Of a DNA stretch of 60,265 nucleotides, positions 3,618 to 58,208 are shown in pieces. The stretch spans positions 1-60,265 of the forward strand of contig CADBTL010000007.1 in NCBI GenBank assembly GCA_902797575.1, read 5' to 3'. The position numbers and the translations under genes were made by a program. This stretch comes from an uncultured bacterium. Its GTDB lineage: Bacteria; Cyanobacteriota; Vampirovibrionia; Gastranaerophilales; Gastranaerophilaceae. How positions within the stretch are numbered: the first letter of the stretch is position 1; the number at the start of each line of letters is the position of its first letter. The notes beneath the pieces are model-generated. The model had not been told where the DNA came from, did not search any database, and was given only the letters and a program-made list of their open reading frames with translations.

Positions 3618-3620
3618 TAA

Positions 3621-5180
3621 TTAGTCCTTGATATATGAAACAAGTAATTTGGCAGCTTCCTCTGGTGCAGCCATTACTGCTTCATTCAATTCACTGATAC
3701 TTTGTTCTTTTTGAGATTTTATTTCCCTTTGCGTTGCTTGAACCGGCTGAATTTCTTCTTCTTGTTCGACCTCTTCCGGTCGTGTATCAGCAATCTCTTC
3801 AATTCTGCGCTCGATTCTTTTTGCACTTGGCATTTTCGCAACAAAATTCCTTAATACAAGTAATGCAAATCCGCCGAGAACTAAGACAACTACCAAAGGA
3901 ACTACTGATGTGCCAATAAAGTAGAATAACTGTTCTTGTTGATATTGTTTTGTAAAGTCTTCCTGAGCTTGCTTATCAATGTTTGCACCTTCAAATTGCA
4001 AACCTGATACCGAAACTGCATCTCCTCTTGAAAAATCAATACCTGCTGCCGATTGTATAAGATTTTTAACTTCCTCTTTTTCACTATCAGTCAAAACCTT
4101 ATTAATTGCTACGGCTATAGAAAGTCGTTTTACTGTTCCTGGAGCATACACAACTTGCTTCACTTCTTTTGATACACTATAATTAATTGCGGTTTTTTGT
4201 TTAGAGTAATTCAAATTTCTATTTACTGTAACCGGCGGAGTAAGGTTCTGTGGATTTTGTATATTGTTTGGGTTCTCATAGGTTTCTGTTTCTGTTTGAG
4301 AACTTGCTACAACACCGGTTCCTTTTTCATCTGTTAAAGGAATATAACTTTCAATTGTTGCTTTAGCAGAATTAAAATCTATATCTGCATTGACTTGAAC
4401 AGAAACGTTACCTTTGCCGACAATTTTTTCCAATACCGATGAAACTTTTTTAGCTGTTTCTTTTTCTAAATTACTTTTGAAACTTTCCATATCTGTTGAA
4501 TTTTTTGATGTTTCATCAGACAGACTGTTACCGTTTTGGTCTGTAATAAATACTTGCTCGGTAGTCATTCTTGGGATAGAATAAGCAACCAAATTTTTAA
4601 TCGCTTTAACTTGCGGGCTTTTAATTTTATAACCAGGTTCTAAACCCAATATTACAGACGCTGTCGGTTTTTCATCGTTATCTTCAAAGATTGAACGCTC
4701 CGGTTCAGCAAGTTGAACGCGTGCATGTTTAATTCCCTGAATTTTTTCTATTGAACGAACCAATTCTCCTTGAAAAATTCTTTGTTTGGTAAGTTTATTT
4801 TTAAAGTCTGTAGAGCCGAGTTGCATATTATCAAGTAGTTCAAATCCCAAATCTTGATTTTTTATAAAGTCATTTTCTGCAACAAAAACTCTCATTTCGT
4901 CTCTTACGTTAGAAGGAACTAAAACCGATTTACGGTCTTCGGATACTTTGTATTTGTAACCATTTTTCTTCATTCCCTCAACGATACTGATTGTATCAAC
5001 TTCGTTCAAATCCGAGTATAAAACAACCCAATCAGGTTCCATAGCTTTTGAAAGAAAGAACGTTGCCGCAATTATCGTTATAACTATAAGTCCGAGCATG
5101 CCGAGTTTTTGCGCTCCGTCAAGCCCATTCCATAATTTCTTCACATCATTAGCTAAAAGTGCAAAATAATTATTTTCCAT
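3621..5180 (-). CDS. fliF: Flagellar MS-ring protein FliF
   Basis: N-terminal TM, LGFELLD, QGELVRSI, ARVQLAEPERSIF, PTASV, RLSIAV, SRGDAVSV, C-terminal TM and PEEAAKLL. Start moved to ATG 5180 (GGAGAG SD). Confidence 0.92.
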   Translation of the reverse strand: MENNYFALLANDVKKLWNGLDGAQKLGMLGLIVITIIAATFFLSKAMEPDWVVLYSDLNEVDTISIVEGMKKNGYKYKVSEDRKSVLVPSNVRDEMRVFVAENDFIKNQDLGFELLDNMQLGSTDFKNKLTKQRIFQGELVRSIEKIQGIKHARVQLAEPERSIFEDNDEKPTASVILGLEPGYKIKSPQVKAIKNLVAYSIPRMTTEQVFITDQNGNSLSDETSKNSTDMESFKSNLEKETAKKVSSVLEKIVGKGNVSVQVNADIDFNSAKATIESYIPLTDEKGTGVVASSQTETETYENPNNIQNPQNLTPPVTVNRNLNYSKQKTAINYSVSKEVKQVVYAPGTVKRLSIAVAINKVLTDSEKEEVKNLIQSAAGIDFSRGDAVSVSGLQFEGANIDKQAQEDFTKQYQQEQLFYFIGTSVVPLVVVLVLGGFALLVLRNFVAKMPSAKRIERRIEEIADTRPEEVEQEEEIQPVQATQREIKSQKEQSISELNEAVMAAPEEAAKLLVSYIKD

Positions 5181-5289
5181 ATCTCTCCAAGCACTATTAT
5201 TCAATAATATCATATATTAACCATTGAAACTTTTCAAATAGTTAAGATATTTTAAGCAAAATAAATTGTTCCGATTTGAAATATCAGTA

Positions 5290-15726: not shown

Positions 15727-16989
15727 TTAAAGATTGTTATTTTTATCTATTTTAAATTTTATAGGATTATTCGGACCAAATTGTTTTTCAAAAAATGCAG
15801 TTGTAGTTTTTACAAAGTCTTCCGTTACATCAGATGATATAACATTTATTGTGTAGTTTTTTTTCTTGTTACTGTCATCTTTTAAATATTCAATAACTTT
15901 CTGTTTGATTTTATTCCCCCAAATACCGGCCATGTCTTTATCTTGTTTTTTCATTTGCGGTATAACAATTTTGCTCAAGTAAATCAGTTTAGGAGAATAA
16001 CTCATTAATATAGGACTTTGTAATATTTTTTGCATAATTTCTTTGTCGTTAAGTTCTCTGTTTTCATTTTTATAAGCAAATTCAAGAGCTTTGATACTTT
16101 TACTCATTGTTTCAGGATTCCTGTAAAAATATGCCGGCATTTTCAGGCATACATTTATATAATCTGACGTTTTTAATCCTTTATCTTGGAATTCAGCTAC
16201 AAGATTATTTATATTTTGTTCTATTTTATTAGGTGATATATAAAAAAGAGGAGGTTGCTTTATGCAGGCGGATATATATCCTTCGGTAGTAAGTCCTTCT
16301 TTTTCAAATAATTTTACTACGTTTCTAATATTTTTTTCAATCGCATTAGGTTTTCTGCAAAATAAGCATGGATATTGTACACAAGCTTTCAGGTATTTTT
16401 TTAATGAAAGACCTTCTTTTTCAAAAATAGTGACAACTCCTCTAATATTTTGTTCGATTGTTTTTGGTGCTTGATAAAATAATGTCGGTTGTTTTAAACA
16501 TGCTTGCAGATATTCTTTTGTAAGCAGCTCTTCATCTTTAAATAGTTCAACTAAATTTCGTACATTTTTTTCAAGGGTATCAGGAGTTTGTGTTAATAAT
16601 TGAGGAAATTTAAAACATGCTTGCATATAATCTTCTTTTTTTAATTGTTCATTTTTAAATTTATCTGTAAATTTTGCGATTCTATCATCAATGGTTTCTG
16701 ATTTTATATATAACAATTTCCCTTTTACCGCCATCGGGAGATAGTTTTCAATTGTAAGACCGTCATTTTTGTGCTTTTCAACAGTAGGAATAATGCAATT
16801 TTGTATCGCATCTGAAAGTGTTTTTACAAAGTTCATCCATTCTTTTGTTTTTTTAGGTTTTGAATCGAGAAATTTAATAATATTAGATTCCGCTTTGCCA
16901 GAATATCCGTAAAAATTGCAACTTGAATTATTTTTGGATAATTTAGAATAATTTATTGACGGTATGTTAGTTGTATTATAGATAATCAT
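15727..16989 (-). CDS. Helical repeat protein with 39-aa mTERF-like repeats
   Basis: Five tandem 39-aa units, consensus F..eGL....Y..AC.k.P.Lf...P..ieqNi..vv.. Confidence 0.7.
   Translation of the reverse strand: MIIYNTTNIPSINYSKLSKNNSSCNFYGYSGKAESNIIKFLDSKPKKTKEWMNFVKTLSDAIQNCIIPTVEKHKNDGLTIENYLPMAVKGKLLYIKSETIDDRIAKFTDKFKNEQLKKEDYMQACFKFPQLLTQTPDTLEKNVRNLVELFKDEELLTKEYLQACLKQPTLFYQAPKTIEQNIRGVVTIFEKEGLSLKKYLKACVQYPCLFCRKPNAIEKNIRNVVKLFEKEGLTTEGYISACIKQPPLFYISPNKIEQNINNLVAEFQDKGLKTSDYINVCLKMPAYFYRNPETMSKSIKALEFAYKNENRELNDKEIMQKILQSPILMSYSPKLIYLSKIVIPQMKKQDKDMAGIWGNKIKQKVIEYLKDDSNKKKNYTINVISSDVTEDFVKTTTAFFEKQFGPNNPIKFKIDKNNNL
16075..16659 (-). repeat. Five degenerate 117-bp coding tandem repeats
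   Basis: aa 111-305 of the 15727-16989 ORF align without gaps at a 39-aa period. Confidence 0.85.
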
Positions 16990-20192: not shown

Positions 20193-20744
20193 TTAATATC
20201 TGCTGGAAAAGAATATTTTAAATATTTTTAGAAAATTCTGCAGTGGTCTTTTTGTTAAAGAAAAAGCCATAAATACTAAAGTTAAAATTCCGCTTGTTAT
20301 GTTAAGGGTTCTGTGTCCGTATTCTTTTTCCATTATAAAATATTGTTCCCTGTTTTCCATATAATTTTGAAAGCGAAGGATATCTTCATTTATTCTGCGA
20401 GTTTTATTTTGTACGTTATTATAATCAAAATTGTAAAAGCTTGTTGTTCCAAAAGGATCTGTATTCATCGTACATCCTAAACCGCCGCCGTAGAAATTTA
20501 CAAAACCGGAATGCAGGTAGTCGCCTCCATAAAATCTTAATTTTGCGCCTTTGCACATTACAAAATCAGAGGATTGTCTAAAATTCCAAATAAAATGTCT
20601 TTCAACTGTGCACATATAGTTCGAATTGCAAGTCATTTTATCATATATCGGATTAAATGCTGCAACGATTATTATAGTTGATATATAAATAACTAATAAG
20701 GCAATAAACTCTTTTCTGTAAATACTAAATTCAGAACCCGCCAT
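20193..20744 (-). CDS. Hypothetical membrane protein (two TM segments)
   Basis: Hydrophobic N- and C-terminal segments; start overlaps the stop of the diguanylate cyclase gene. Confidence 0.65.
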   Translation of the reverse strand: MAGSEFSIYRKEFIALLVIYISTIIIVAAFNPIYDKMTCNSNYMCTVERHFIWNFRQSSDFVMCKGAKLRFYGGDYLHSGFVNFYGGGLGCTMNTDPFGTTSFYNFDYNNVQNKTRRINEDILRFQNYMENREQYFIMEKEYGHRTLNITSGILTLVFMAFSLTKRPLQNFLKIFKIFFSSRY

Positions 20745-22561
20745 TAGTATCTGCCTACCTGATTTCTGCCATGTTCTTTTGCGTAGTATAAACCCTTATC
20801 AGCCCATTCAATTAAGTCTTGAGGTGTTTGAGCATTATCAGGGAATGTTGAAACTCCTAAGCTTATAGTTACTTCTGCTGTATCAACAGGATTCAAATGG
20901 AATGGCTTTTCAGCAACAGCCGCACAAATTCTGTTTGCAAGAAGTAGTGCTTCATCAGCTCCTGTATTCGGAAGTATAATACTCATCTCTTCACCGCCAT
21001 ATCTGCAAACATAATCAGTAGTTCTTGAATTCTTTTTAAGAGTTTGTGCTACTTGTCTTAATACTGCATCGCCGGCTTGATGTCCGTATGTGTCGTTAAA
21101 CTTTTTGAAGAAGTCTATGTCACAAATTATTAGTGAAACAGATTGTTTGTAACGTCTGGATATGTCTATTTGCTGGCGCAAAGTATCTTGAAAATATCTG
21201 TGATTATATAATTCTGTTAAACCGTCAATTGTTGCAAGTTTATATTGATATTCAAAATCTCTTGACTTCATCAGATACTTCGCAAGTAAGCTTAATGTAA
21301 ACGCAAGACCTATTGCAATAATCGGAAGAACTACGGGTATCCATAAATTGAATAGTTCCATCATATAATATGAAACAAAGAAGTATGCAATCATAAATAA
21401 TATTGTAGAAAGGATACCAAATAAAGTAGATGATGAAAACATTGCTATTGCACCAACTATTGCAATTACTGTTAGTATTATTAAAATATTAGCAATTATA
21501 CTTGTTTTATGTATAAAATTATTATCTAAAAGATTGTTTATAAAAGTTGCGTGAACTTCTACACCAGGGTATACTTCCGCTTGAATAGGAACGCTTTTTG
21601 TGTCATGCAAGCTCATTGCAGTAGTTCCAACAATAATAATTTTATCTTTAAAATCGAATTTATTTATATTTGTACCGTCAATCTCTTTAATTATTTTGTA
21701 GAATGGAACAGCAGTGTGTGTTCCGCTTTGTCCGTACCAATTTAGGATTGCTTCTCCATTTTTAGTTAAAGGAATTTTTGTATCTGATACAAGCAAGTTA
21801 GAATTTTCATCAATTGTGAAATTATTATCATTCTTCATTTGTAAATAGTCACTGCCTGCTTTAAAACTCAAATATGGATAATAATTATCTTTGTATACAA
21901 GTATCGGTGCGACAGAACGAATAATTCCGTCACTGCTTCTGATAACATTTGTAAGAGCAACATTAACATTGCCGTTCAGTAATTCCGGTAATATTAAACG
22001 ACAATTTTGGAATTTATATTTTTTACTAAAATCTATTTTAGATTTGTTATTAATATTTAATTTAAGTCTATCCGGTAAGTCTTCAGGTTTTCTAACGTCA
22101 TATGGCTGATTATCAAAATTTAAGCCTGTATATATGTTATTGTATTTATTCATTGTGTCAACAAAGTATTTATCGGCATCTTTTGAAGTGCGCACAGATT
22201 TTAAAAACATTAAATCAAATATTATTGCTTGAGGTTTTTGGGCTTCAATGTAGTTTATTATATCTCCGTAAACATTTCTTGGAATAGGCCATTCTCCATA
22301 TTTGTCCCATAACGCTTCTACGCTTGCATCATCAATTGCCAAAACAACAATATCTTTGTTCGGTAATGGTCTTTTGTGCATAATTTTAATTGTTTGTCTG
22401 TAATCAAAAGTCCTATTTTCAGCTACCTCAAAAAATGATTTGAATACATTTCTTAGGGTATTATTATTTTGTAATAGTACAAACCCTATTAGTAATGATG
22501 CTAATACTAATAATATATAAGTACCAAATATAAACCATTTTGTCTTTGTTAAATTTTTCAC
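20744..22561 (-). CDS. CHASE2-domain diguanylate cyclase
   Basis: IVVLAIDD..WP.PR, D.DG.IR, PGVEVHA (CHASE2), 3 TMs, DGLT.LYN, DIDFFK.FND.YGH..GD, RYGGEEM with RTTD I-site. Confidence 0.93.
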   Translation of the reverse strand: MKNLTKTKWFIFGTYILLVLASLLIGFVLLQNNNTLRNVFKSFFEVAENRTFDYRQTIKIMHKRPLPNKDIVVLAIDDASVEALWDKYGEWPIPRNVYGDIINYIEAQKPQAIIFDLMFLKSVRTSKDADKYFVDTMNKYNNIYTGLNFDNQPYDVRKPEDLPDRLKLNINNKSKIDFSKKYKFQNCRLILPELLNGNVNVALTNVIRSSDGIIRSVAPILVYKDNYYPYLSFKAGSDYLQMKNDNNFTIDENSNLLVSDTKIPLTKNGEAILNWYGQSGTHTAVPFYKIIKEIDGTNINKFDFKDKIIIVGTTAMSLHDTKSVPIQAEVYPGVEVHATFINNLLDNNFIHKTSIIANILIILTVIAIVGAIAMFSSSTLFGILSTILFMIAYFFVSYYMMELFNLWIPVVLPIIAIGLAFTLSLLAKYLMKSRDFEYQYKLATIDGLTELYNHRYFQDTLRQQIDISRRYKQSVSLIICDIDFFKKFNDTYGHQAGDAVLRQVAQTLKKNSRTTDYVCRYGGEEMSIILPNTGADEALLLANRICAAVAEKPFHLNPVDTAEVTISLGVSTFPDNAQTPQDLIEWADKGLYYAKEHGRNQVGRY

Positions 22562-22886: not shown

Positions 22887-22913
22887 TAAAGAAATTGTGC
22901 ATAAAACCGATAA
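22887..22913 (+). promoter_or_regulatory. Sigma28-type promoter of fliE
   Basis: TAAA(22887-90)-N15-ACCGATAA(22906-13). Confidence 0.65.
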
Positions 22914-22942
22914 GTATAATAAATGAGAAAGGCAAGTAATAT

Positions 22943-23281
22943 ATGATTAACAGTTTTATTCCTAATTATGATTTGGAAGCAAGGATTCAGCATACCAAAC
23001 TGGACGGTTTTGCAGGTATGCCATCAGCAAGAATAGGTAATATGGAAGAAGCAGGCGGAGCTGATTTCAAAAGCGTAATGTCAGGACTTGTTGATAATAT
23101 GAATCAAACGATGAATGCTCCGGATAATTTAATGAAAGATGTAATGATGGGCAATGAGAATGTTGATATTCATGATGTAATGGTTGCTATGTCAAAAGCA
23201 GAAATATCGGTTAATATGGCAACAACAGCAGTCGGAAAAGTCATACAAGCGTATGATAGAATAATGCAAATACAAATATAG
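22943..23281 (+). CDS. fliE: Flagellar hook-basal body protein FliE
   Basis: F..VM, G...DIHDVMVAMSKAEIS, KVIQAY.RIMQIQI C-terminus. Confidence 0.88.
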   Translation: MINSFIPNYDLEARIQHTKLDGFAGMPSARIGNMEEAGGADFKSVMSGLVDNMNQTMNAPDNLMKDVMMGNENVDIHDVMVAMSKAEISVNMATTAVGKVIQAYDRIMQIQI

Positions 23282-23404
23282 ACTTCTCATAATTGAAATA
23301 AAAGTGTATAATAATGGAACAGGGCGGTTGAGAACATAAGCTTTTGTAATTTTTAACTCAAACTTTCTTATACTTAACTTCCGGACTTCCAAAAGGGCAG
23401 GATT

Positions 23405-25078
23405 ATGGAAAAAATCAAAGAATTACTTCAGAACAAGACTATACTTTACGGTTTAATAGGAGCAGTTGCTCTTGTACTTTTTTTAGTAATTATTATCGGT
23501 TCAATAAGTGTTAATAAATCAAATAATGAACCACAGCCTGCTGATAGCGAAAAAATCCAAGAGGATATTGACTTACTGACTACTGATAATTTAGGAAAAG
23601 CCTTAGAAATACAAGCTCTTTTAACAAAGCACGGTATAAGTGCAACAAGAATGGTTGATGGTACGAAATCTGTCCTGAGACTCAGTAAAAAAGGATGTTC
23701 TCTTGCAAAGAAAAACTCCTGCACGATAAAAGAACGTGATACTGCAATTATGGTAATTGTTGAGAGCGGATTATATGACCAAAATGTAGGATTAGAAATT
23801 TTTGATAAAGGTGACTTTACATCAACAAAAGAAGATAAAAAAATAAGACTTGTACGTGCAATGAATGGTGAGCTGGCTCGTTTAATTAAACGTATAGATG
23901 GTATTCAAGACGCATCCGTATTCATATCAATACCGGAACAGTCTATGTTTGCCGCTAATCAAAAGCCTGTAACAGCAACTGTTCAATTAACTGTTGCAAT
24001 TGGTAAAACTTTGAGTCAAAGTACTATTAAAGCAGTAACGAATTTGGTATTAGGTGCAGTCGGTAAAGATTTAACAGCTGATCATGTAGCAATATCTGAT
24101 ACAAACGGACATGTTTACAATAGTGTAATTGATGCGTCATCAGAAATGCTTGAAAAATTGCAAGAAAATGATAAATATATGCAAGAAAAAGTTCAAGCTC
24201 AATTGAACAAATTAATTGGCGGCGGTAAATATGTCGTAACTGTATCTACATTCTTAAAACAAGCACCGCTTGAAAAGTATACTATTGCGTATGATCCCAG
24301 TTCTAAAACTGCTGTTACAGAACAAAGTTTCTCCGAAGGTTTGGGTGACAGAACGTCTGATAGCAGCAGCAATACAAATGCTGTAAGCGTATATTTGCCA
24401 AACGGACTGCCTGCCGGTAATTCTAATTCATCTCAAAATAGAAGCTATCAACGTTCTGCAAGAGAAACTCAGTATGGCGTGACTAAGGTACAAACAAATG
24501 AATATATTTCACCCGGTGCAATAGAAGAAATCTCTATAGCGGTAACTTTAGAAAAAGATTCACTACCTGTTGAATTAACTCTTGAAGATCTAAAAGATCT
24601 TGTTGCAAGAGCTGCAAGTCCAAAAGCTAAAGCTGAAAATGTAACTATTGCGTTTGCAGATACAATCGATCCGTTTATTGCGGCAGATAAAAATGTTAAA
24701 GCACCTATAAAGGCTTCTCACGGCAATCCTTGGTGGTTGGCAATTGCACTAATGTTTATGGGCTTATTGTTCGGTCACAGATTGCTTACAAACAGAATTA
24801 AGGCAGCTAAAGAAGCTCAAGATGAAGAATTGGTAAGATTGAAAGAGCAAAATGAAATGCAGGAAAAGCAATTAAAAGATTTGAGCTTGAATGCAGCTAA
24901 TTTGATACAAAGACAGACACAACTACAGCAAGGATTGATTGAACAACAGAGTAAGCCGGCAATAGCTCCTACTTCTGCAGCTGAAATCAGAGAAGCTTTA
25001 AGAGACTTAAAGCGTGAACTTGATGGTGCTGATGATGTTGAGACCGGTGAAAGAATAAGAAGCTGGATAGAAGGCTAG
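23405..25078 (+). CDS. Divergent second FliF/YscJ-family ring protein
   Basis: N-terminal TM, GLEIFD, GELARLIKRIDGI.DA.V.ISIPE.S.F, P.TATV, I.DTNG, FliF-like C-terminal ring domain (PGAIEEISIAV), C-terminal TM. Confidence 0.82.
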   Translation: MEKIKELLQNKTILYGLIGAVALVLFLVIIIGSISVNKSNNEPQPADSEKIQEDIDLLTTDNLGKALEIQALLTKHGISATRMVDGTKSVLRLSKKGCSLAKKNSCTIKERDTAIMVIVESGLYDQNVGLEIFDKGDFTSTKEDKKIRLVRAMNGELARLIKRIDGIQDASVFISIPEQSMFAANQKPVTATVQLTVAIGKTLSQSTIKAVTNLVLGAVGKDLTADHVAISDTNGHVYNSVIDASSEMLEKLQENDKYMQEKVQAQLNKLIGGGKYVVTVSTFLKQAPLEKYTIAYDPSSKTAVTEQSFSEGLGDRTSDSSSNTNAVSVYLPNGLPAGNSNSSQNRSYQRSARETQYGVTKVQTNEYISPGAIEEISIAVTLEKDSLPVELTLEDLKDLVARAASPKAKAENVTIAFADTIDPFIAADKNVKAPIKASHGNPWWLAIALMFMGLLFGHRLLTNRIKAAKEAQDEELVRLKEQNEMQEKQLKDLSLNAANLIQRQTQLQQGLIEQQSKPAIAPTSAAEIREALRDLKRELDGADDVETGERIRSWIEG

Positions 25079-25143
25079 AGGTCTGGATTAAGCTGTAAAA
25101 CGAGTTATAATATAAGTAAATAACCTACTTTAAGGAACAATAA

Positions 25144-26184
25144 ATGGCAATCGAAGGATTTGATTATAAAGCATTCGCGGAAAATATGGCAGGACAGGCA
25201 AAACAGCTTGTTCCTCAAGATTTAAGGCCAGACCAGCAAGAATATATTGTATCAACTTTAAACAATTTTACGTTACTTGCCGGAGAGGCATTATATAATG
25301 ATGAAAGCTTAAAGATAACTGCAGAACAAGCTGTATTTATAACACAAGTTATTGCCGAATGGTCATTTCACAAATCAATTGACTTGATAAGATCAGGTTT
25401 ACCTAAGATATATTGGGATAGTATTATGCAAAAAATTGCATTTACTATTTTTGAAATTGCAAAACAAGCTATAGGAAAAGATATTACTCAAGAACAATTA
25501 TTACCTGTAATTGAACATCATGTTGTTAAAGTATATAACAAATGTATTGATGATTTGCAGAGTAGGGGTGCTATCACAAAAAAAGCAAAGGAAACCGCAG
25601 AAAGCCAATCAAATATTGATGCAATGGCGAAACAAGCTGCTGAAGAGATCAATAAAGAGAAAGAAGCTCCATATATAGAGGCTGATAATCGCAGAAAGGA
25701 AGCTCTAAAGAAAAGAGAAGAAGCAAGAAAGCAGCGTAAAGTAGAGCAGGAGTTGGAAAAAGCTTCTGAACTTGTAAATAAAAAACAACTAAAAATGATA
25801 TCACTAGCTATGATTTTAAGAATGCTGCCTGATGAAAAAGCTAACTTAATATTGAGCAAGGTAAATCCTGACGATGTAAAAGTCATAATGAGCTATATGA
25901 ATGTAGTTAATCTGGAGTCGCAAATTGATGGTGATATACTTCTTGAATGTTTAAAAGAAATCAAGAATGCACTTCCTGTAAAGCGAACGCTTACGGAAGA
26001 AAATATTATGGGAGATATGCTCAGATTATATAAAACTAATCCGCGTGAAAAAGTCGAAAAAACAATTAAAAATGAACGTCCGTTAGTTAAAAGATTTATA
26101 TCTCAGGCATATAACGGTGAGTACTCAGGACTTCCTGTAAAAGTTGCAGGAATTGTTGCACAATACGTTGAGGATAGTATATAA
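25144..26184 (+). CDS. Hypothetical protein with FliG-N-like C-terminal region (SctK position)
   Basis: SLAMILRMLPDEKANLILSKV..DDVKVIMSYM resembles FliG KVAALLIALGPTTASEILKNI; lies between the ring and stator genes. Confidence 0.6.
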   Translation: MAIEGFDYKAFAENMAGQAKQLVPQDLRPDQQEYIVSTLNNFTLLAGEALYNDESLKITAEQAVFITQVIAEWSFHKSIDLIRSGLPKIYWDSIMQKIAFTIFEIAKQAIGKDITQEQLLPVIEHHVVKVYNKCIDDLQSRGAITKKAKETAESQSNIDAMAKQAAEEINKEKEAPYIEADNRRKEALKKREEARKQRKVEQELEKASELVNKKQLKMISLAMILRMLPDEKANLILSKVNPDDVKVIMSYMNVVNLESQIDGDILLECLKEIKNALPVKRTLTEENIMGDMLRLYKTNPREKVEKTIKNERPLVKRFISQAYNGEYSGLPVKVAGIVAQYVEDSI

Positions 26185-26199
26185 TAATTGTAAAAACAC

Positions 26200-26991
26200 A
26201 TGATTATTAAGAAAAATAAAATTAAACAGTGGGAGGAAAAGAAGCAACAAGAAGAGATGGCTTTGCACCAAGAGCAAGAGCCTGTAACTGTTGTGGAAGA
26301 TTTTATAGAAGGCCAGGATGAAGCTCCTGAAGAAGAACCAATAGAAGATATAACGCCAATAGAACCTGTTTTACCTCCTGAACCGGAGATTGATTTATTT
26401 AATATTGAGAATATTGATTTCTCACAGCGTCAAGAAAGAAGACGTGGTACGAGAAGAAGAGGCTATAGAAGAATTGATGACAGAAATCTTGTTTCAAGAG
26501 CGCAAGAAGAGGCTGAAAATATTAAAAAGTCTGCTTTTGAAGAAGGATATAGAAAAGGCTTGGAAGCTGCCGGTAGTGATATAGCGCATTTAAGGAATAA
26601 TATTGCGGAATTTTTAGGTGCGCCCAAAGAAGTTTTTGAGTATATCGCACCGGATATTTTAGAAATCAGTGTTAATATTGCTAAAACTATTATAAAAAAA
26701 GAGTTAAGCACGGATCCTCAAGTTTTATTGGATATTATAATTGATGTATTAAGAAAAAGCTGCAAAAATGAGCCAAAAGTTTCGGTAAGAGTTCATCCTC
26801 AGTTCGTGGCATTTATAAAGGATGCTCTTCCTAATATGATTTATGAGTATGGAATTGAGACGAAAATAAATATTATTTCAGATCAATCATTGGATATAGG
26901 AAACTGTATTCTTCAAACAAACAACGGTATTATAGATGCGTCTATTGACACACAGATTGAAATCATTAAAAAGGCTTTAGAGGGGATATAA
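26200..26991 (+). CDS. Second FliH/SctL-family protein
   Basis: AFEEGYRKG, IA..II.KEL, VRVHP, D.SL..GNCILQT.NG.IDASIDTQIE.I. Confidence 0.87.
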   Translation: MIIKKNKIKQWEEKKQQEEMALHQEQEPVTVVEDFIEGQDEAPEEEPIEDITPIEPVLPPEPEIDLFNIENIDFSQRQERRRGTRRRGYRRIDDRNLVSRAQEEAENIKKSAFEEGYRKGLEAAGSDIAHLRNNIAEFLGAPKEVFEYIAPDILEISVNIAKTIIKKELSTDPQVLLDIIIDVLRKSCKNEPKVSVRVHPQFVAFIKDALPNMIYEYGIETKINIISDQSLDIGNCILQTNNGIIDASIDTQIEIIKKALEGI

Positions 26992-29093
26992 TGGCAGCAG
27001 AACCCACGAGTAAACCTATATCAGAAATAGCATTGGCAATCTTTGTAATGATTTTGATATTAATCTTAATCATAGAGATGCCAAATTGGGTTATTAATGT
27101 TTCTATAGCATTAAATATTACTCTGGGAATTGTTTTATTGATGATATCTCTTTATGTGCAAAAACCTTTAGAGTTGGCAGCTTTTCCTTCTATAATTCTT
27201 TTGGGTACTATGTTTCGACTGTGTCTTTCTATTGCTTCGACTCGTCTTATTTTGGCAAAAGGGGAAGCCGGTGAAGTTGTGCATGCATTTGGAACATTTG
27301 TAACCGGCGGGAACATGGTTGTAGGCGGTGTAATATTCTTAATTATTACTGTTGTTCAGTTTATGGTTATTACAAAAGGTGCTGAACGTATTGCCGAAGT
27401 TGCAGCACGTTTTGCCTTAGATGCTATGCCCGGTAAACAAATGACTATTGATGCTGACTTTAATGCAGGTTTAATTACACCTGAAGAAGCAGTAAAAAAG
27501 CGTGAAGATCTTCAAAGAGAATCAAGCTTATTCGGTTCTATGGATGGTTCTATGAAGTTCGTAAAAGGTGATACTATGGCAGGTATCATCATTGTAATAA
27601 TAAATATTGTAGGTGGTTTAACAATTGGTTGTTTGATGAATCAAATGCCAATAGCAGATGCTGTCAGCAAATATACTGTTTTAACAATCGGTGACGGTTT
27701 GGCATCTCAACTTCCGTCTTTATTAATGTCTGTTGCTGCAGGTATTGTCATGACTCGTGCTTCAGCAGGAAGTATGTCATTAGGCGGTGATTTGACAACG
27801 CAAATACTTGCAAAGCCGCATTCTCTTTTCTTTGCATCTGCATTCTTGATGTTAATTGCACTAACAGGTAATACCGGTTTGTGGCAAGGAACCGGTTTAC
27901 CGTTTATACCGTTCTTTTTGTTTTCAGTAGGTCTCGCAATTGCAGGGTTCTCTGTATTAGTTAATGCCGATGTTCAATCACAATTGGGACAATTGGAAAG
28001 CGTTCGACAAAATATGCAAGACTTGGTTAACCCGAACAAGATGTATGAAAGACTTGGTGTTGATGTTTTAAGCTTGCAGGTTGGAGCGGGATTGCTTGTA
28101 ATTGCCGATCCGGATCAAGACGGTCAATTGCTTGCTAAGATAGCTGCTTTACGTCAAAGGGTAACGGATGAACTTGGTTATATCTTACCGAATATTCGTA
28201 TTATGGATTCTTCTGCATTGGAAGCTAATGAGTACGTAATTTCTATTAGAAATAACGTAGTTGCCTCAGGATTTGTATATCCGGGCAGATATATGGTTAT
28301 AGCCGATCAATGGGATTCTGTTAAGAAGACAATTCCTGATGATGCAATAGTTGGTGTTGATCCGACATATCAAACTCAAGCTTATTGGATAAATCAAGAA
28401 GATGCAAGAGCTAATAAAAATGTTACAGCAGTTGATTCTACGGATGTTCTTGTAACTCACTTACAAGAATGTGTGCGTAAACATGTTGATGAAGTTATGA
28501 CAAAAACAGATGTTCTTAAACTTATGGAGCTTGTTCGTTCGCAAGACCCAACATTAGTTAATGACTTAGTACCTGCAATAATTTCAACTTCAGATTTGCG
28601 TAAGATATTTGTAAACTTAATCAGAGAAAAGGTTTCAATCAAAGATATTATATTTGTATTTGAGCGATTATGTGATTATGCAAGATTTTCAAAGGAACCT
28701 GATATACTTTCTGAGCGTCTCCGTGCTGCATTAGGACGTCAAATTTGTTTAAGTAACGTTGATAAAGATCACGTTTTATATGCATTGACATTATCTCCTG
28801 AATGGGAAAAAACATTAGATGACAGCTGCCAAAGAACAGAACTCGGGACAATGTTTTTGCTTAATCCGATGCAGGTTCAAGACTTGATTGAAACTACAGC
28901 TATGACATTGATGAGGGCACACCAACAAATTGGACAGCAGCCGGTAATCTTGTGTTCTCCAAGAATAAGATTGCCTTTATATCAACTCCTTGAACGTCAT
29001 ATTCCAACAATTGTTGTAATATCTTATTCGGAATTAATAACGGATATTAAGGTTGAAGCAGTTGATACTGTAGGTGAAGGCGGCGGTTATTAG
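26991..29093 (+). CDS. flhA: Type III export gate FlhA/SctV (FHIPEP family)
   Basis: FPS.LL.T.FRL, KGAERIAEVAARF.LDAMPGKQM.IDAD, TIGDGL, NL.RE.VSIKD, V.SY.E; several motifs are SctV-type. Confidence 0.93.
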   Translation: MAAEPTSKPISEIALAIFVMILILILIIEMPNWVINVSIALNITLGIVLLMISLYVQKPLELAAFPSIILLGTMFRLCLSIASTRLILAKGEAGEVVHAFGTFVTGGNMVVGGVIFLIITVVQFMVITKGAERIAEVAARFALDAMPGKQMTIDADFNAGLITPEEAVKKREDLQRESSLFGSMDGSMKFVKGDTMAGIIIVIINIVGGLTIGCLMNQMPIADAVSKYTVLTIGDGLASQLPSLLMSVAAGIVMTRASAGSMSLGGDLTTQILAKPHSLFFASAFLMLIALTGNTGLWQGTGLPFIPFFLFSVGLAIAGFSVLVNADVQSQLGQLESVRQNMQDLVNPNKMYERLGVDVLSLQVGAGLLVIADPDQDGQLLAKIAALRQRVTDELGYILPNIRIMDSSALEANEYVISIRNNVVASGFVYPGRYMVIADQWDSVKKTIPDDAIVGVDPTYQTQAYWINQEDARANKNVTAVDSTDVLVTHLQECVRKHVDEVMTKTDVLKLMELVRSQDPTLVNDLVPAIISTSDLRKIFVNLIREKVSIKDIIFVFERLCDYARFSKEPDILSERLRAALGRQICLSNVDKDHVLYALTLSPEWEKTLDDSCQRTELGTMFLLNPMQVQDLIETTAMTLMRAHQQIGQQPVILCSPRIRLPLYQLLERHIPTIVVISYSELITDIKVEAVDTVGEGGGY

Positions 29094-29150: not shown

Positions 29151-31568
29151 ATGTTAAGGGAAGTATTATCAAAAATATATCAAAATAAAAATTTTTTAAT
29201 GTTGTTTTCTGTTGGGGTTTATTTATTAGCATTAATTGGTGTTCTTAGCGGTAAGTCTGTTTTCTTTGCAACAGTAATAACTTTGATGATGGTTTTAGCT
29301 ATTATAAAAGATTTTTTCCCGTTAAAAATAATTATTGTTTGGATATTAATATTTTATTTTGGCATTATTAATACCGGTTTAAGGTTAAAAAATAATGATG
29401 AATTGTTGAATCTTGCACCGGTAAATTCAACCATATATGGTAAAATTGTATCAATACCGCAAAATAAAGGTGATGGAAAGGTTAAATTTTTCTTTAAAGT
29501 AAATAAAATAGAATATGATAATCTTGTTCAAAAATTTAAGGATGAAAAAGTTCTTGTTACTTTAAATACTGATGATAAATTAAATATATATGATTCTTAT
29601 AAAATTAGAGGAAGATTATCAATGCCATTTAAAGCGGGTAATCCTTCTCAATTTGATTACGGAAATTATTTAAGGAATTATGGTTCTTATGCTGTTTTTT
29701 ACGGAAGAAATCCTTATTCAATGAAAGATGAAGATATTCCTTGTTATGAAAAATTCCAAAATAAAAATTCAACTATAGAAAAAGCATTGCAAAAAATAAA
29801 TAATTACAGAGAAAGTATTTTATCAGTGCATTCAAGGTATTTAAAGTCTCCTAATCTTGAAATTTTAGGTGGTATAGTTTTTGGTGATGATGCGGTGTCA
29901 CCTCCGGAAAATATTAAGCAATCTTTTGTAAATTCAGGTCTGCTTCATATACTTGCCGCATCAGGTATGAATGTTGCATTTATCTATTCTTTCTTTTTCT
30001 TAATTTTAAGATTAATAAGGGTTCCGTTTAAAATTAATGTTGGCTTATGTATGCTGGCTGTTATAACATATGTTTTAATGACAGGGTTGGGTGCATCAGT
30101 TTTAAGAGCGGCATTAATGCTTTTATTTGTTTTAGTGGGTAAATTAATAGACAGAGATGCTCATAGCGTAGCACTTTTATCTTTTGTTGCATTTCTAATG
30201 CTTATATATAATCCAATGTACATAAATGATGTCGGATTTCAGCTTTCTTTTATTGTTACATTTGGTCTTTTAATGATGACACCTTACTTATTCAAGATTA
30301 ATCATAAGGTAATTGATTGGATTATAGGAACCGTTACTATACCAATAATTGCTCAATTATGGGTAATTCCGATTCAAATTTTTTATTTTAATAATATCAG
30401 TATTTATTCTGTATTTGCAAATATAATGAGTGTACCGCTTTTGTCAGTAATAAGTTTTGGTGGATTTATAAGTTCACTTATTTCTATAATAACTCCAATT
30501 TCTGATTTTATATGCAGGATTTTTGATTTTGTTATTAATCCGCTAATAACAATACTTGTAAATATATCAGACTTTTGGGGAAATCTTCCGAATTCAACAA
30601 TGCAAACTACTCACCCAAATCCATTTCAACTAATCTTGTATTATGCAATTTTAATATGTATCACAGCTCTATTTGATAAAAATATTAGAGAAAAATTTGT
30701 TAAACAGCTATTAGCGGCAATATTGACATTATTAACAATCCTGTTGCTTTCTATGATATCTATTCCAAGTCAAAGTTTGGAAATAACAACTTTTGATGTC
30801 GGTAATGCGGATGCTTTCATGATTAAGACTCCTGATAATAGGTTTATCATGATAGATACTGCAAAAAGCGGCTATAATGGCGGAAAATCTCAAGCAGAAA
30901 TGCTTATACTTAAATATTTTAAGGATATTGGTATAAAGAATCTTGATTCAATTATTGTGACTCATTTTGACAATGACCATTGCGGTGGTGCTGTTGATTT
31001 ATTGAAAAACTTGAGTGTAGAAAAAATATATGTAAATTCTCTTACGCATAATTCCAATGCTGCTAAAGATATATATAAAACAGCCAATCAACGTAATACG
31101 GAATTGATAGAAGCAGAAAATAATCAAACCGTTTATGATAATAATGCTTTAAAAATAACAAATTTTATAGTGAAAGATGTTGCAGGAATCGGTGATAATG
31201 AAAGTTCAATAATAACTCTTCTGACTTACAATGATTTTACTATGCTATTTACAGGTGATGCAGGTGTGGAAACTTTTAATAAACTAAAAAATAAACTTCC
31301 ATCCAATATTACGATATTGAAAGTAGGACATCACGGTGCATCAGGTGTTGTCAATAAATCAATGGCAGAATATCTGCGACCGGAATATTCAATAATATCA
31401 ACCGGCGAAAATAAGTTTGGTCATCCTTCAATTTATACATTAGAGACTCTGAGAAATTCAAAAATTTTAAGAACTGATATTAATAATTCAATAAAAATTG
31501 AAGTAAAAGATAAGGTGCACAAAGTCTATACGTATAATTCCGAGAAGCGTAAATATATGTTATATTAA
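29151..31568 (+). CDS. comEC: DNA uptake competence protein ComEC/Rec2
   Basis: NP..FDY..YL, SGLLHILAASGMNV, GFQLSF, metallo-beta-lactamase domain (FDVGNAD, THFDNDH, LFTGD, KVGHHG, FGHP). Confidence 0.93.
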   Translation: MLREVLSKIYQNKNFLMLFSVGVYLLALIGVLSGKSVFFATVITLMMVLAIIKDFFPLKIIIVWILIFYFGIINTGLRLKNNDELLNLAPVNSTIYGKIVSIPQNKGDGKVKFFFKVNKIEYDNLVQKFKDEKVLVTLNTDDKLNIYDSYKIRGRLSMPFKAGNPSQFDYGNYLRNYGSYAVFYGRNPYSMKDEDIPCYEKFQNKNSTIEKALQKINNYRESILSVHSRYLKSPNLEILGGIVFGDDAVSPPENIKQSFVNSGLLHILAASGMNVAFIYSFFFLILRLIRVPFKINVGLCMLAVITYVLMTGLGASVLRAALMLLFVLVGKLIDRDAHSVALLSFVAFLMLIYNPMYINDVGFQLSFIVTFGLLMMTPYLFKINHKVIDWIIGTVTIPIIAQLWVIPIQIFYFNNISIYSVFANIMSVPLLSVISFGGFISSLISIITPISDFICRIFDFVINPLITILVNISDFWGNLPNSTMQTTHPNPFQLILYYAILICITALFDKNIREKFVKQLLAAILTLLTILLLSMISIPSQSLEITTFDVGNADAFMIKTPDNRFIMIDTAKSGYNGGKSQAEMLILKYFKDIGIKNLDSIIVTHFDNDHCGGAVDLLKNLSVEKIYVNSLTHNSNAAKDIYKTANQRNTELIEAENNQTVYDNNALKITNFIVKDVAGIGDNESSIITLLTYNDFTMLFTGDAGVETFNKLKNKLPSNITILKVGHHGASGVVNKSMAEYLRPEYSIISTGENKFGHPSIYTLETLRNSKILRTDINNSIKIEVKDKVHKVYTYNSEKRKYMLY

Positions 31569-44113: not shown

Positions 44114-44243
44114 ATTTACCCCTATTACAACAGGCGGAGCAGTTTAACGAAACTTCGTCATACATAATTTGCCCCTACAACAGGCGGATGAGTGTAACAC
44201 AACTTTGTTATCCTCCCTATTTACCCCTATACTCCATTACCCC
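44114..44243. repeat. Two tandem 50-bp REP-like units (TACAACAGGCGGA...hairpin...ATTTRCCCC)
   Basis: TACAACAGGCGGA at 44126 and 44176; homologous to 9493-9536. Confidence 0.75.
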
Positions 44244-44256
44244 TTTATCACGAAAT

Positions 44257-45084
44257 ATGATTAGTTTACGTACAAATATAACAAGTTTAATGGTTCAAAA
44301 AAATCTGTCTAAAGCGACTGCGGGTTTAGATAGAGCAATTGAGCAGCTTACAACAGGGTATAAACTTAATCATGCTAAGGATAATCCGGCAAATTATGCG
44401 ATGATGAAAAACATGGAGACAAAGCTTCATGCGTGGGAAATAGCAGCTGATAATATTTCTATAGGAAATGATATGCTTGAAACTGCATCGAGTAATGCCG
44501 AATTAATCGGAAACCATTTAAACAGAATACGTGATTTATGTGAGCAAGCTTCTAACGGAACTTACGGAGAACAATCAATTAATGCCATCAAATCCGAGAT
44601 ATCAGCAAGAGTTGATGAGATAAAAAGAATAAAAGAAAACACTGAGTTTAATGATATAAAGCTTTTTGGTGAGTGTGATTCGGAGGGGAAAGTAATTGGT
44701 AAAGAGATATTTATCCAAGTTGGAATTGACGGTTCACCGAGTTCAAGAATAGGAATTGATACAACTCTTGATTTGAGTGAAATAGATGATATTTTAGATT
44801 GGAATATACGAGATTCAAAGAATCTTGATAAGATAGATGAATACATTGATAAAATATCTGCTTACGAGGTAAAAATAGGTGCATCACAAAACAGGTTAGA
44901 GTGCGCTCTAGAGCTTACCGAAGTTAATACAAATAATCTTACTTCATCAATATCAACCATTCGTGATGCAGATATTGCAAAAGTTTCAAGTGAGTTTATA
45001 AGATATCAAATATTACAACAAGCATGTGCGACATTACTTGCAACAGCTAATCAAATGCCTGCTATGGCGCTTCAATTAATTTAG
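44257..45084 (+). CDS. fliC: Flagellin (short, 275 aa)
   Basis: ISLRTN, L.TG.KLN.AKD.PA, L.RIRDL..QA.NGT, GASQNRLE, S.IRDAD.A, ILQQA...LA.ANQ.P..AL.L. Confidence 0.9.
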   Translation: MISLRTNITSLMVQKNLSKATAGLDRAIEQLTTGYKLNHAKDNPANYAMMKNMETKLHAWEIAADNISIGNDMLETASSNAELIGNHLNRIRDLCEQASNGTYGEQSINAIKSEISARVDEIKRIKENTEFNDIKLFGECDSEGKVIGKEIFIQVGIDGSPSSRIGIDTTLDLSEIDDILDWNIRDSKNLDKIDEYIDKISAYEVKIGASQNRLECALELTEVNTNNLTSSISTIRDADIAKVSSEFIRYQILQQACATLLATANQMPAMALQLI

Positions 45085-46110: not shown

Positions 46111-47286
46111 ATGGGACTGGCAGCGACACAAGCAAGACTATTAACCATAACCGCTCGAATTCATGATGTCGAATACGAAGTAATGCGCATCATGAACGAG
46201 AAGGTTGAGCTTGGAACGCATCAGGACAAGATTTATCAAGATTATTGCAGAGCATTGGACGCACAAAAATTACAAATAGCAGTTAGTAGTGACAGTACAT
46301 CGTTAAATTATGTAGACGCTACATTTACTAATATTTGCGGGTACAATAACAGCAGAAAAGGCACATTTGCACTCATAGACAGTTCAACAGGTCGTATGAT
46401 TGTAGAAGATGATGCTTACGATGCATACAAAGAATATAGTAATGACAAGTATGCTTTTGCTTGGGCTATGATGGGATTTGAAAAAAATGATTTTGCGTGG
46501 GCTGATACTGCATATGAAGGTACCGGAGATCAGGTCGGTATTAATTCTCCATCAGGAGAACCAATAAAAACAAAAGACGGTTCTATTATATATGTAAGGT
46601 CAATGACGGAAGCTGAAGAATATGTATTTGACAAGCATAAAGATCTTAACTTGGACGAAACTGTCAAAACAAAATATGACAAGTACCAAACTGCATTACA
46701 AACAGGTGACAGAGATAAAATATCAGCGGCATTATCTGATTTTAGGAGTGCATTTACCTCAAAATATTTTGAAGAAATATATGATGCAATGCGTTTGGAT
46801 AAAGAAGGTGTAACAAAAGAGCAAGCAATCAGCAGTGGACAATATATTCCCGGTTTCGACGGCGATTATGATCCTGAACTAAAAGATGAGTTTGACTATT
46901 ATGTTCGTGTCTTTGAGGGTATAGAGCATGCCGGAGGTTGTATACCCGTAAGTAAATATTCAGAAGACGGTGATACCGGTAATGAATGGTTAAATAATCT
47001 AATGGATTACGGCATGATTACTATAAATGAATACGATAAGAAAAAAGGTTGGAGTGCAACCAGTGTTTCAGGAAGTTCAAATTTAAAACAGGTAACGGAT
47101 AATAATGCAATCAAAAGAGCTGAGGCAAAATATCAATATGAACTCTCTATTATAAATAAAAAAGAGGCAAAAATGGATCAAGATCTTAAGAGTCTTGAGG
47201 CAGAACGTTCTGCTCTCAATACAGAATTTGATTCGTATAAGAATATTATAGATGAAAACATAAAACGAACATATAAAATAGGTTAA
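46111..47286 (+). CDS. Hypothetical protein with terminal coiled coils (MGLAATQARLL...), flagellin-like architecture
   Basis: Amphipathic N-terminal helix, heptad C-terminus (KRAEAKYQYEL...ERSALNTEFDS.K.II..NI.RTY), no signal peptide. Confidence 0.8.
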   Translation: MGLAATQARLLTITARIHDVEYEVMRIMNEKVELGTHQDKIYQDYCRALDAQKLQIAVSSDSTSLNYVDATFTNICGYNNSRKGTFALIDSSTGRMIVEDDAYDAYKEYSNDKYAFAWAMMGFEKNDFAWADTAYEGTGDQVGINSPSGEPIKTKDGSIIYVRSMTEAEEYVFDKHKDLNLDETVKTKYDKYQTALQTGDRDKISAALSDFRSAFTSKYFEEIYDAMRLDKEGVTKEQAISSGQYIPGFDGDYDPELKDEFDYYVRVFEGIEHAGGCIPVSKYSEDGDTGNEWLNNLMDYGMITINEYDKKKGWSATSVSGSSNLKQVTDNNAIKRAEAKYQYELSIINKKEAKMDQDLKSLEAERSALNTEFDSYKNIIDENIKRTYKIG

Positions 47287-47326
47287 TAATAAAAATTTCC
47301 CTTTTTAATCCCTTTTCCCTTTTTCC

Positions 47327-47354
47327 GCTTGAGCTAAAACTCAAGCTTTTTTTT
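47327..47354 (+). terminator. Intrinsic terminator
   Basis: GCTTGAG-CTAAAA-CTCAAGC followed by T8. Confidence 0.8.
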
Positions 47355-47419
47355 AATTCTCAAGTGCTATTTAATTGTAAAAAATATTTTGATACAATAT
47401 ATTCAGATAGGAGATTTAT

Positions 47420-48655: not shown

Positions 48656-48670
48656 AATTTTAAATAGGAC

Positions 48671-48713
48671 ATAAAAAGAAAGATGCTATTTTTGCGAGCA
48701 TCTTTCTTTTTAT
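48671..48713. terminator. Bidirectional terminator between glgC and the MFS gene
   Basis: ATAAAAAGAAAGATGCT...AGCATCTTTCTTTTTAT inverted repeat. Confidence 0.85.
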
Positions 48714-48758
48714 ATTCTGTAAGAATAGAGTAATTTATTGGACTCTGTTTTCTATTTG

Positions 48759-50147: not shown

Positions 50148-50398
50148 TATTTCATCTTCCCCTATATATCCTATATTGATATTATCTCACAAAAATGGTA
50201 AATATTTGCAAAACGACTTCCTATTCTTTTAAAAAGATAGCAGTCAATATTGATTCTTTGCGTATACCAACGCATATTAGTGTCCAATAAAAAATTTTGC
50301 AAGCAAAGTGTCCTCTACCAACCGGAGAATATGTATGGGTGGAAATTTACCCTCGGTTTTGCACCTTTACCCCTAGATTTATCCCTAGATTTAACCCA

Positions 50399-58013: not shown

Positions 58014-58037
58014 GAAAAGCCTCTTTTTAACTCTCTT

Positions 58038-58071
58038 ATATATATAAAAACATTTTTGTTAAGAAAATTGA
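58038..58071 (-). promoter_or_regulatory. Recurrent putative promoter motif TCAA-N22-ATATATAT
   Basis: Followed by AAGAGAG, as in the 12847 copy. Confidence 0.5.
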
Positions 58072-58188: not shown

Positions 58189-58208
58189 TATGTTGTTCTG
58201 TAATTTTA

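What the first reader, a model, noticed from the sequence alone, without database searches (positions are those of the whole stretch)
22887..29093. Second, divergent type III export cluster: flagellum/injectisome hybrid
Seen: fliE, then a second ring protein, a FliG-like orphan, a second FliH and the export gate, in addition to normal fliF/G/H 18 kb away. The order ring-X-stator matches injectisome sctJ-sctK-sctL. The gate has SctV-type motifs (FRLCLSI rather than FlhA RLxLNV; RESSLFGSMDGSMKF rather than EADFYGxMDGASKF). The ring keeps FliF architecture (N-terminal TM, third ring domain, C-terminal TM) but has an SctJ-like start (ALEIQALLTKHGISA). FliE is flagellum-specific. Inference: an undescribed non-flagellar type III secretion system that is intermediate between, or independently derived from, the flagellum. 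This is the best candidate for a new system in the window.
Basis: partly seen in the sequence, partly recalled or inferred. Interest (0 to 1): 0.9.

Follow-up and report, generated by a model that had tools for sequence, protein, structure and literature searches.

The report
Second, motorless flagellum-derived secretion machine
These five genes are part of a second, complete copy of the flagellum's protein-export machine that gut relatives of cyanobacteria keep even after losing their flagellum, so it likely works as a non-rotating secretion device, with some injectisome-like features but outside the known injectisome family.

Summary
The cluster is real. The genome, placed with Gastranaerophilales, has a full ordinary flagellum plus a second divergent set: FliE, ring, X, FliH, FlhA, FlhB, FliO/P/Q/R, FliI, FliJ, a FliK-like protein, four rod genes, a short hook/rod gene and a two-SPOA SctQ-like protein. 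The second gate is in 101 of 101 genomes of the order; 77 of them have no flagellin and no ordinary FlhA. It is under purifying selection. X is a new helical domain plus a FliG fragment without the torque domain. The SctQ-like gene has a conserved internal start, as injectisome sctQ does. The set is not an injectisome: it keeps FliE/FlgB/FlgC, has no linked secretin or detected needle, and placing its gate inside SctV is rejected. Best reading: a motorless export conduit with unknown cargo. Papers noted 'partial flagellar sets' in this order; none I found describes a second system. Earlier AI notes in this scan reached a similar reading on other DNA.

The parts
22943..23281 (+). FliE2, rod-base adaptor of the second system (112 aa)
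   Evidence: TIGR00205 61 bits over cut-off; PF02049; the canonical fliE lies after flgB-flgC on contig C52
23405..25078 (+). FliF2, inner-membrane ring (557 aa): N-terminal TM, YscJ_FliF and YscJ_FliF_C domains, C-terminal TM, terminal S-W-I-E helix in the place of FliF's FliG-binding tail
   Evidence: W554 invariant in 22 of 22 aligned homologues; own clade, SH-aLRT 100. Binding of the tail to X is inferred, not tested
25144..26184 (+). X (346 aa): lineage-specific helical N-domain (about 1-155), long helix, and a FliG N/M-like C-domain (about 213-346) without the FliG torque domain; sits in the FliG/SctK gene slot
   Evidence: profile of 66 homologues hits Aquifex FliG 3hjl at E 2.3e-5; members hit FliG_M 15 of 66 and FliG_N 9 of 66 weakly, FliG_C 2 of 66 at E 0.055; model pLDDT 82; the 3 listed structure matches that cover only the C-part are all FliG entries, Z 6.1-6.7
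26200..26991 (+). FliH2 / SctL-like ATPase tether (263 aa)
   Evidence: PF02108 84 bits; scores alike on FliH and SctL models, under all cut-offs
26991..29093 (+). FlhA2, major export gate (700 aa); keeps the residues matching E. coli R94, K203, D208, lacks the flagellar GYXLI motif
   Evidence: 40% identical to the genome's canonical FlhA; present in 101 of 101 genomes of the order

Best explanation
The cluster is the central piece of a second, vertically inherited type III export machine derived from the flagellar base, which likely builds a short non-rotating rod-type tube and is predicted to export as-yet-unknown proteins through it. Shown: gene content, conservation, absence of motor and filament genes in most carriers. 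Inferred steps: FliP2/Q2/R2, FlhB2 and FlhA2 form the gate inside the FliF2 ring; X docks on the FliF2 tail in place of FliG and holds pods made of the full-length SctQ-like protein plus its internally translated C-terminal product; FliH2 ties in the FliI2 ATPase with FliJ2; early substrates FliE2, FlgB2, C2, F2, G2 and a 278-aa FlgEFG-family protein polymerise into a tube, helped through the wall by the operon's lytic transglycosylase; the FliK-like ruler and FlhB2 (NPTH intact) then switch export to late substrates that are not flagellin. No torque is applied because X lacks FliG_C and most carriers lack MotAB. How or whether the tube crosses the outer membrane is not known.
For: Two copies of every core gene in G000. 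Rod-to-gate operon flgF-G-B-C-slt-fliE-fliF-X-fliH-flhA intact in 8 of 24 class-level gate loci fetched, continuing into fliI-fliJ-fliK-like-flgE-like in 2. Gate in 101 of 101 order genomes, canonical FlhA in 23, flagellin in 24; short hook/rod gene in 100 of 101. In 7 of 7 non-flagellated panel genomes: one ring, FlgC2, and no FliG_C, FlgI, FlgD or MotB plug. Single-contig genome G052, 87% read: 15 set-2 genes, no set-1 gene. dN/dS about 0.04-0.2 in 6 of 6 gene pairs between non-flagellated genomes; gate more conserved than canonical FlhA in 7 of 7 genome pairs. Gate residues, Walker A and NPTH intact. Internal SD+ATG before the last SPOA domain in 7 of 7 homologues that cover it.
Against: No substrate, expression or structure data. 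No L/P ring, hook cap or linked secretin in non-flagellated carriers, so an exit across the outer membrane is unexplained. Family f14 keeps gate and ring but FlgC2 was not found with this query (0 of 4) and its ring lacks the W tail. The FliG likeness of X is weak (hhalign against the genome's own FliG 30% probability; Foldseek nothing at E<=0.001). FlgB2/F2/G2 were not seen in the 87% of G052 that was read (FlgC2 lies in the unread part). Two class families lack any FlhA (0 of 36, 0 of 2), so the machine is not essential to the class.
Confidence: 0.68

Rival explanations
1. The machine exports only its own rod subunits, and the finished periplasmic rod or ring is the product: an envelope strut, attachment point or membrane-tube nucleator, not a secretion channel for other cargo.
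For: No outer-membrane ring, hook cap or linked secretin; no effector or chaperone gene recognised in the 8 intact operons. T3SS core proteins are reported in nanotube and hat-like structures (PMC9380563, abstract read).
Against: A FliK-like ruler and an intact FlhB cleavage motif are kept; by established T3SS knowledge these switch export to a second class of substrates. Full ATPase complex and SctQ-like platform are kept.
Confidence: 0.2
2. A decaying relic or a mere helper of the ordinary flagellum.
For: Genes are scattered over at least 6 contigs in G000; earlier papers read the non-flagellated genomes as incomplete flagellar sets (PMC4040986 passages).
Against: No stop codon inside the gate match in 101 of 101 genomes; 77 of 101 have it without flagellin; dN far below dS; where only one set is left, it is this one.
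Confidence: 0.04
3. A true but divergent injectisome acquired by transfer.
For: Ring-X-FliH gene order, two-SPOA SctQ-like protein with internal start, loss of GYXLI, AMKF motif in the derived members, first ring domain aligns to the YscJ model from residue 64.
Against: Gate inside SctV rejected (AU p 8e-5; 1e-91); FliE, FlgB, FlgC and FliO present; the only secretin sits in a pilus/type II operon; ring has FliF architecture and no N-terminal cysteine.
Confidence: 0.03
4. A second rotary motor driven by an unrecognised stator, for example the ExbB/TolQ-family protein.
For: Rod and a short hook-like gene are kept; G000 and G052 have a second MotA/TolQ/ExbB-family gene. In the other class, f26 genomes with only the second system still score on MotB_plug (2 of 2).
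Against: No FliG_C, MotB plug, P-ring or filament in 7 of 7 non-flagellated genomes of this family; in G000 the ExbB-like gene has no MotA N-domain hit.
Confidence: 0.05

Closest known systems
Bacterial flagellar basal body and its type III export apparatus
   Same: FliE, FliF architecture, FliH/I/J, FlhA/B, FliO/P/Q/R, FliK-like ruler, rod genes, and the gene order flgB-flgC-fliE-fliF-(fliG slot)-fliH.
   Different: FliG replaced by X without FliG_C; FliM+FliN replaced by one two-SPOA gene; no dedicated MotAB, FlgD, FlgH/I, FlgK/L or flagellin; GYXLI lost; coexists with an ordinary flagellum.
Non-flagellar T3SS (injectisome), as defined by Abby and Rocha 2012 (PMC3459982, passages read)
   Same: Eight shared core genes, no motor, SctQ-like gene with a predicted internal start as in spa33/yscQ (PMC4832279, passages read).
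   Different: Keeps the three flagellum-specific markers FliE, FlgB, FlgC; no linked secretin, no needle, tip, translocon or SctD recognised; gate outside SctV.
Myxococcales secretin-less T3SS ('Myxo', needleless T3SS*)
   Same: Motorless, secretin-less, conserved vertically; M. xanthus uses it in contact killing (PMC12075869, search listing only).
   Different: Myxo systems lack FlgB/C/D/E/K and FliE/G (PMC3459982) and their gates fall inside the SctV clade; this set keeps the rod and a FliG fragment.
Chlamydiaceae flagellar remnant (FliF-FliG_M fusion; PMC4768692, passages read)
   Same: Flagellum-derived ring with only a FliG middle-type module in a non-flagellated cell.
   Different: Chlamydial FliF is short and fused; here the ring is full-length, X is separate with an added domain, and a whole gate, ATPase and rod set is kept. 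The fusion form occurs in the phylum's other class (6 of 6 rings).
Buchnera hook-basal bodies (recalled; one search listed no paper on it)
   Same: Flagellar base kept without filament or motor, proposed as exporter.
   Different: Buchnera's is the reduced only flagellum of an endosymbiont; this is an ancient paralogous system kept beside a complete flagellum and remodelled.

Membership tests
Non-flagellar T3SS (Abby and Rocha 2012) | At least seven of eight core genes sctJNQRSTUV or homologues | tested here: met
   All eight have a set-2 homologue in G000 and G052
Non-flagellar T3SS (Abby and Rocha 2012) | Lacks flgB, flgC and fliE | tested here: not met
   fliE2 in the window; FlgB2 and FlgC2 over NCBIfam cut-offs; same operon in 8 of 24 loci
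Non-flagellar T3SS (Abby and Rocha 2012) | Dedicated secretin SctC | tested here: not met
   One secretin in G000 (91% complete), beside T2SSE and T2SSF genes; its orthologue is the only hit in the 87% of G052 read. Shared use cannot be excluded
Non-flagellar T3SS (Abby and Rocha 2012) | Gate falls in the SctV clade | tested here: not met
   Outside SctV in 4 trees; nesting with non-Myxo SctV rejected; sister position not rejected (p 0.42 and 0.18)
Non-flagellar T3SS (Abby and Rocha 2012) | Needle, tip, translocon, SctD | tested here: inconclusive
   None recognised among the ORFs of set-2 loci scanned; no genome-wide search for these families was run
Non-flagellar T3SS (Abby and Rocha 2012) | SctQ translated as full-length plus C-terminal product | tested here: inconclusive
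   Sequence signal in 7 of 7 homologues, background 0.24% of 3,745 internal ATGs; the protein product was not observed
Motile flagellum | FliG with torque domain and MotAB stator | tested here: not met
   FliG_C 0 of 7 and MotB plug 0 of 7 non-flagellated carriers; X lacks FliG_C
Motile flagellum | Filament, hook cap and P ring | tested here: not met
   Flagellin absent in 77 of 101 carriers; FlgD 0 of 7, FlgI 0 of 7
Motile flagellum | Export gate, MS ring, rod | tested here: met
Myxococcales needleless T3SS | Lacks FlgBCDEK and FliEG; gate basal within SctV | tested here: not met
   Rod genes and FliE kept; Myxococcota gates group with SctV, not with this gate
Type III export (function) | Exports proteins in vivo | not testable with these tools
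   No culture, proteome or RNA holder available

The most novel reading that the evidence does not exclude
This system, with the parallel second system of the phylum's other non-photosynthetic class, is the living flagellar sister group of all injectisomes: it preserves the stage after loss of motor and filament and after FliM/N became a tandem-translated SctQ and FliG shrank to an SctK-like adaptor, but before the rod was lost and a secretin recruited. That would put the first step of injectisome evolution earlier than the Myxococcales stage and tie it to the ancestor of Cyanobacteriota. Support is modest (SH-aLRT 92-93, best likelihood but rivals not rejected). If it is false, the system is a second, independent conversion of a flagellum into a secretion machine, which is itself new.
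Probability: 0.2. Interest if true: 0.92.

Novelty: new variant of a known kind. Interest (0 to 1): 0.72.

Why it matters
It changes the reading of 'incomplete flagellar gene sets' in common gut Melainabacteria: these genes are not leftovers of the flagellum but a separate, older paralogous machine kept in every genome searched in the order. It gives a natural experiment on how a flagellum becomes a secretion system, with rod kept and motor lost, either as a sister of injectisomes or as a convergent second origin. It also points to an unknown conserved export function in a human and animal gut lineage and in relatives of cyanobacteria.

Tried and rejected
Motif argument (LSI, MDGAMKF): mixed within the gate clade and within SctV, so rejected as a classifier. 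Gate as sister of SctV at 0.73 in the first tree fell to no support once Myxococcota and Chlamydiota gates were added. The careful IQ-TREE search did not finish; only the quick C20 tree is reported. Foldseek on the X model: nothing at E<=0.001; the N-domain's best match (IE1, Z 11) is under the tool's bar for helical bundles and SctK was not listed, which is inconclusive. The 141-aa ORF between fliQ2 and fliR2: only a lead to PF13629 (feature score 0.85, TM under 0.5), and not found in G052. Promoter scan upstream of fliE: 6 sites against 5.7 expected. No RNA holder listed; no evidence either way. Broader flagellar FlhA outgroups (spirochaete, Campylobacterota, Desulfobacterota, Thermotogota) could not be added, which limits the origin test. 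Literature searches found no description of a second system in this group; the library lacks most subscription papers, Di Rienzi 2013 was seen only as cited, and Extended Data Fig. 3 and supplements of the 2026 preprint could not be seen and may bear on novelty.
Full report
Observation. NCBIfam and Pfam give FliE, a ring protein below the FliF cut-off, an orphan (X), FliH/SctL and a gate scoring 696 bits on FlhA and 580 on SctV, below both cut-offs. A canonical fliF-fliG-fliH-fliI cluster lies at 496-5213 on the minus strand. GC content is flat across the region.

Organism. G000 is 1.83 Mb and 91% complete. The closest named gate sequences are from records titled Gastranaerophilales or Melainabacteria, and the nearest atlas clusters of X are Melainabacteria. 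I therefore treat it as Gastranaerophilales. Names for the coded families are my inference: f11 would be Obscuribacterales, the other class with FlhA would be Sericytochromatia, and the FlhA-less genomes would be oxygenic cyanobacteria.

Two sets. G000 has two each of FlhA, FlhB, FliP, FliQ, FliR, and of FliE, FliF, FliH and FliI. Set 1 is an ordinary flagellum: most of its export and rod genes pass the flagellar NCBIfam cut-offs, with FliG, FliL/M/N, MotA/B, FlgD/E/K/L/N, FlgA/H/I/J and flagellins. Set 2 adds, outside the window, a 365-aa two-SPOA protein, fliO-fliP-fliQ-orf141-fliR (contig C23), flhB (C126), fliI (C155), flgF-G-B-C (C3) and fliJ, a FliK-like gene and a 278-aa FlgEFG-family gene (C72). 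That these pieces belong together is shown by relatives: 8 of 24 class-level gate loci carry flgF-flgG-flgB-flgC-slt-fliE-fliF-X-fliH-flhA as one operon, 7 of them with fliI next, and 2 continue into fliJ, fliK-like and flgE-like. The C23 block and flhB2 are assigned to set 2 because they are the copies kept in non-flagellated G052.

Distribution. The set-2 gate is in 101 of 101 genomes of the order, at 70-89% identity and without internal stops; canonical FlhA is in 23 (22 full rows plus G093). Flagellin is in 24 of 101, the same genomes plus G011. The short hook/rod gene is in 100 of 101. In a hand-picked 35-genome panel, all 15 genomes with FliG_C have two rings, 19 without it have one, and one has none. 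The 7 non-flagellated genomes of the window's family have FlgC2 but no FliG_C, FlgI, FlgD or MotB plug (the last two used 25 of the 35). In single-contig G052, of which 1,619,001 of 1,867,336 bases were read in tiles, 15 set-2 genes and no set-1 gene were found; FlgB2/F2/G2 and orf141 were not seen, and FlgC2 lies in the unread part. In the class, 122 of 161 genomes have a FlhA-family gene; f11 (0 of 36) and f16 (0 of 2) have none, and f14 and f15 have a single full-length gate, which falls in the set-2 clade in the 6 sequences tested. Kin are not independent, so these are descriptions, not statistics.

Selection. Between non-flagellated genomes dN/dS is about 0.06 for the gate, 0.04-0.2 for the ring (4 pairs) and about 0.12 for X, with dS near saturation; the gate is more conserved than canonical FlhA in 7 of 7 genome pairs. 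Gate and ring trees have matching branching across families, which fits vertical descent.

Protein X. A profile of 66 homologues finds Aquifex FliG as its only solved relative below E 0.1 (2.3e-5, C-terminal half). The model (pLDDT 82, pTM 0.46) has a helical N-domain, a long helix and a C-domain; the listed structure matches confined to the C-part are three FliG entries at Z 6.1-6.7. The evidence is weak piece by piece but consistent, and X sits in the fliG slot. It has one FliG-type module and no torque domain. The N-domain also occurs in longer unrelated-length proteins and alone in G008 and G052. An SctK-like role is inferred from position; likeness to SctK was not shown.

Injectisome-like traits. 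The two-SPOA gene has GGAGGA followed by an in-frame ATG just before its last SPOA domain in 7 of 7 homologues that cover this part (2 of 9 were truncated). It is the best-scoring internal start in each, against 0.24% of 3,745 background internal ATGs, and the motif falls in different reading frames in different homologues. Five of the seven are close relatives. This matches the tandem translation described for spa33 and yscQ, which that paper also hints at for Thermotoga fliY (PMC4832279, passages). The gate keeps R94, K203 and D208 equivalents (numbers recalled) but lacks GYXLI, as do SctV and the other class's second gate (motif per PMC9431611, search listing).

Origin. The gate clade is fully supported in all trees and lies outside SctV (6 fragments were dropped; 52 of 154 rows used in 97 and 98). 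Quick IQ-TREE runs group it with SctV and the other class's second gate at SH-aLRT 93 (LG+G4) and 92 (C20), unstarred and unresolved. AU tests on 51 rows (one long branch left out; constraint trees from a fast LG search) reject nesting inside SctV under both models; they do not reject sisterhood to SctV (p 0.42, 0.18), to the other class's gate (0.44, 0.43) or to the class's own flagellar FlhA (0.14, 0.14); one duplication topology is borderline under C20 (0.046). Only 8 flagellar FlhAs from outside the phylum were included.

Mechanism. Best reading (0.68): a non-rotating type III conduit that assembles ring, gate and a short rod-type tube, then switches via the FliK-like ruler and FlhB2 to unknown late substrates. 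Gene content and conservation are shown; assembly, switching and export are inferred from established flagellar and injectisome biology. The open gap is the outer membrane: no L/P ring, hook cap or linked secretin was found. The main rival (0.2) is a purely structural periplasmic rod.

What is known. Soo 2014 (passages) and Utami 2018 (passages) read non-flagellated genomes as partial flagellar sets; Soo 2015 (passages) treats Melainabacteria fliI as one clade. A 2026 preprint (10.64898/2026.04.24.720558, passages) reports about 25% with complete flagella and the rest keeping flhB, fliI and flgG, postulated for secretion; this agrees with my 24 of 101 and anticipates the function, but the passages do not recognise a separate paralogous system. 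A 2026 flagellum-ancestry preprint has no hit for these taxa (PMC13277936, passages). By the Abby and Rocha criteria (passages) the set is neither NF-T3SS nor a motile flagellum. Earlier AI notes of this scan describe like systems on other DNA; they are leads, not support.

Verdict. Real, conserved, apparently undescribed as a system, and a new variant of type III export machine; function and deep origin remain inferred. Interest 0.72.

Noticed in passing
L072-L091, L107-L111 (other class of the phylum): These genomes also hold a second gate, in an operon flgF-G-A-H-I-J-sigma factor-flgB-C-fliE-fliF-flhA. Its ring is fused to a FliG_M domain (6 of 6 tested), it holds the genome's only flgI in the 4 two-system genomes checked, and family f26 has only this set, without FliG_C. 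Orthology to the window's system is unresolved.
   Followed up: partly
G000 C29:2658-4124 (L035) and C96:7108-7749 (L036): Stand-alone FlhA cytoplasmic-domain proteins without the membrane part (488 and 213 aa). The 488-aa form is also kept in non-flagellated G052 and many order genomes; it may be a partner or regulator of the second gate.
   Followed up: partly
L069:7872-9406, L302:2213-2923: The N-terminal domain of X occurs as a separate paralogue (187 aa in tandem in G008; 236 aa elsewhere in G052) and in many 500-700 aa proteins: an unnamed lineage-specific domain family.
   Followed up: partly
L040:2245-2670 (G000 C23): 141-aa protein with an N-terminal hydrophobic helix between fliQ2 and fliR2; weak lead to the pilus/secretin N-terminal domain PF13629; present in L364, not found in G052.
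   Followed up: partly
L040:2689-3180 (G000 C23): FliQ2 is 163 aa, with a C-terminal extension of about 75 residues beyond the usual FliQ; same length in G052 and L364.
   Followed up: no
window 44188-45084 (+): Isolated flagellin gene, one of at least five in the genome.
   Followed up: no
window 15727-16989 (-): 420-aa ORF with weak hits to the mostly eukaryotic mTERF repeat family (35 bits, over cut-off).
   Followed up: no
window 20744-22561 (-) and 29151-31568 (+): The cluster is flanked by a CHASE2-GGDEF diguanylate cyclase (divergent) and comEC; neither neighbour was recognised beside the cluster in relatives (only comEC was in the reference set).
   Followed up: partly
L041:5123-6001 (G000 C155): A cyanobacterial-type RpaB response regulator (over NCBIfam cut-off) follows fliI2.
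   Followed up: no
window 46111-52362 and 57528-60227: Several ORFs of 160-670 aa without Pfam hit at E 1e-5; the listed ORF 48759-50147 did not translate as given and was not examined.
   Followed up: no
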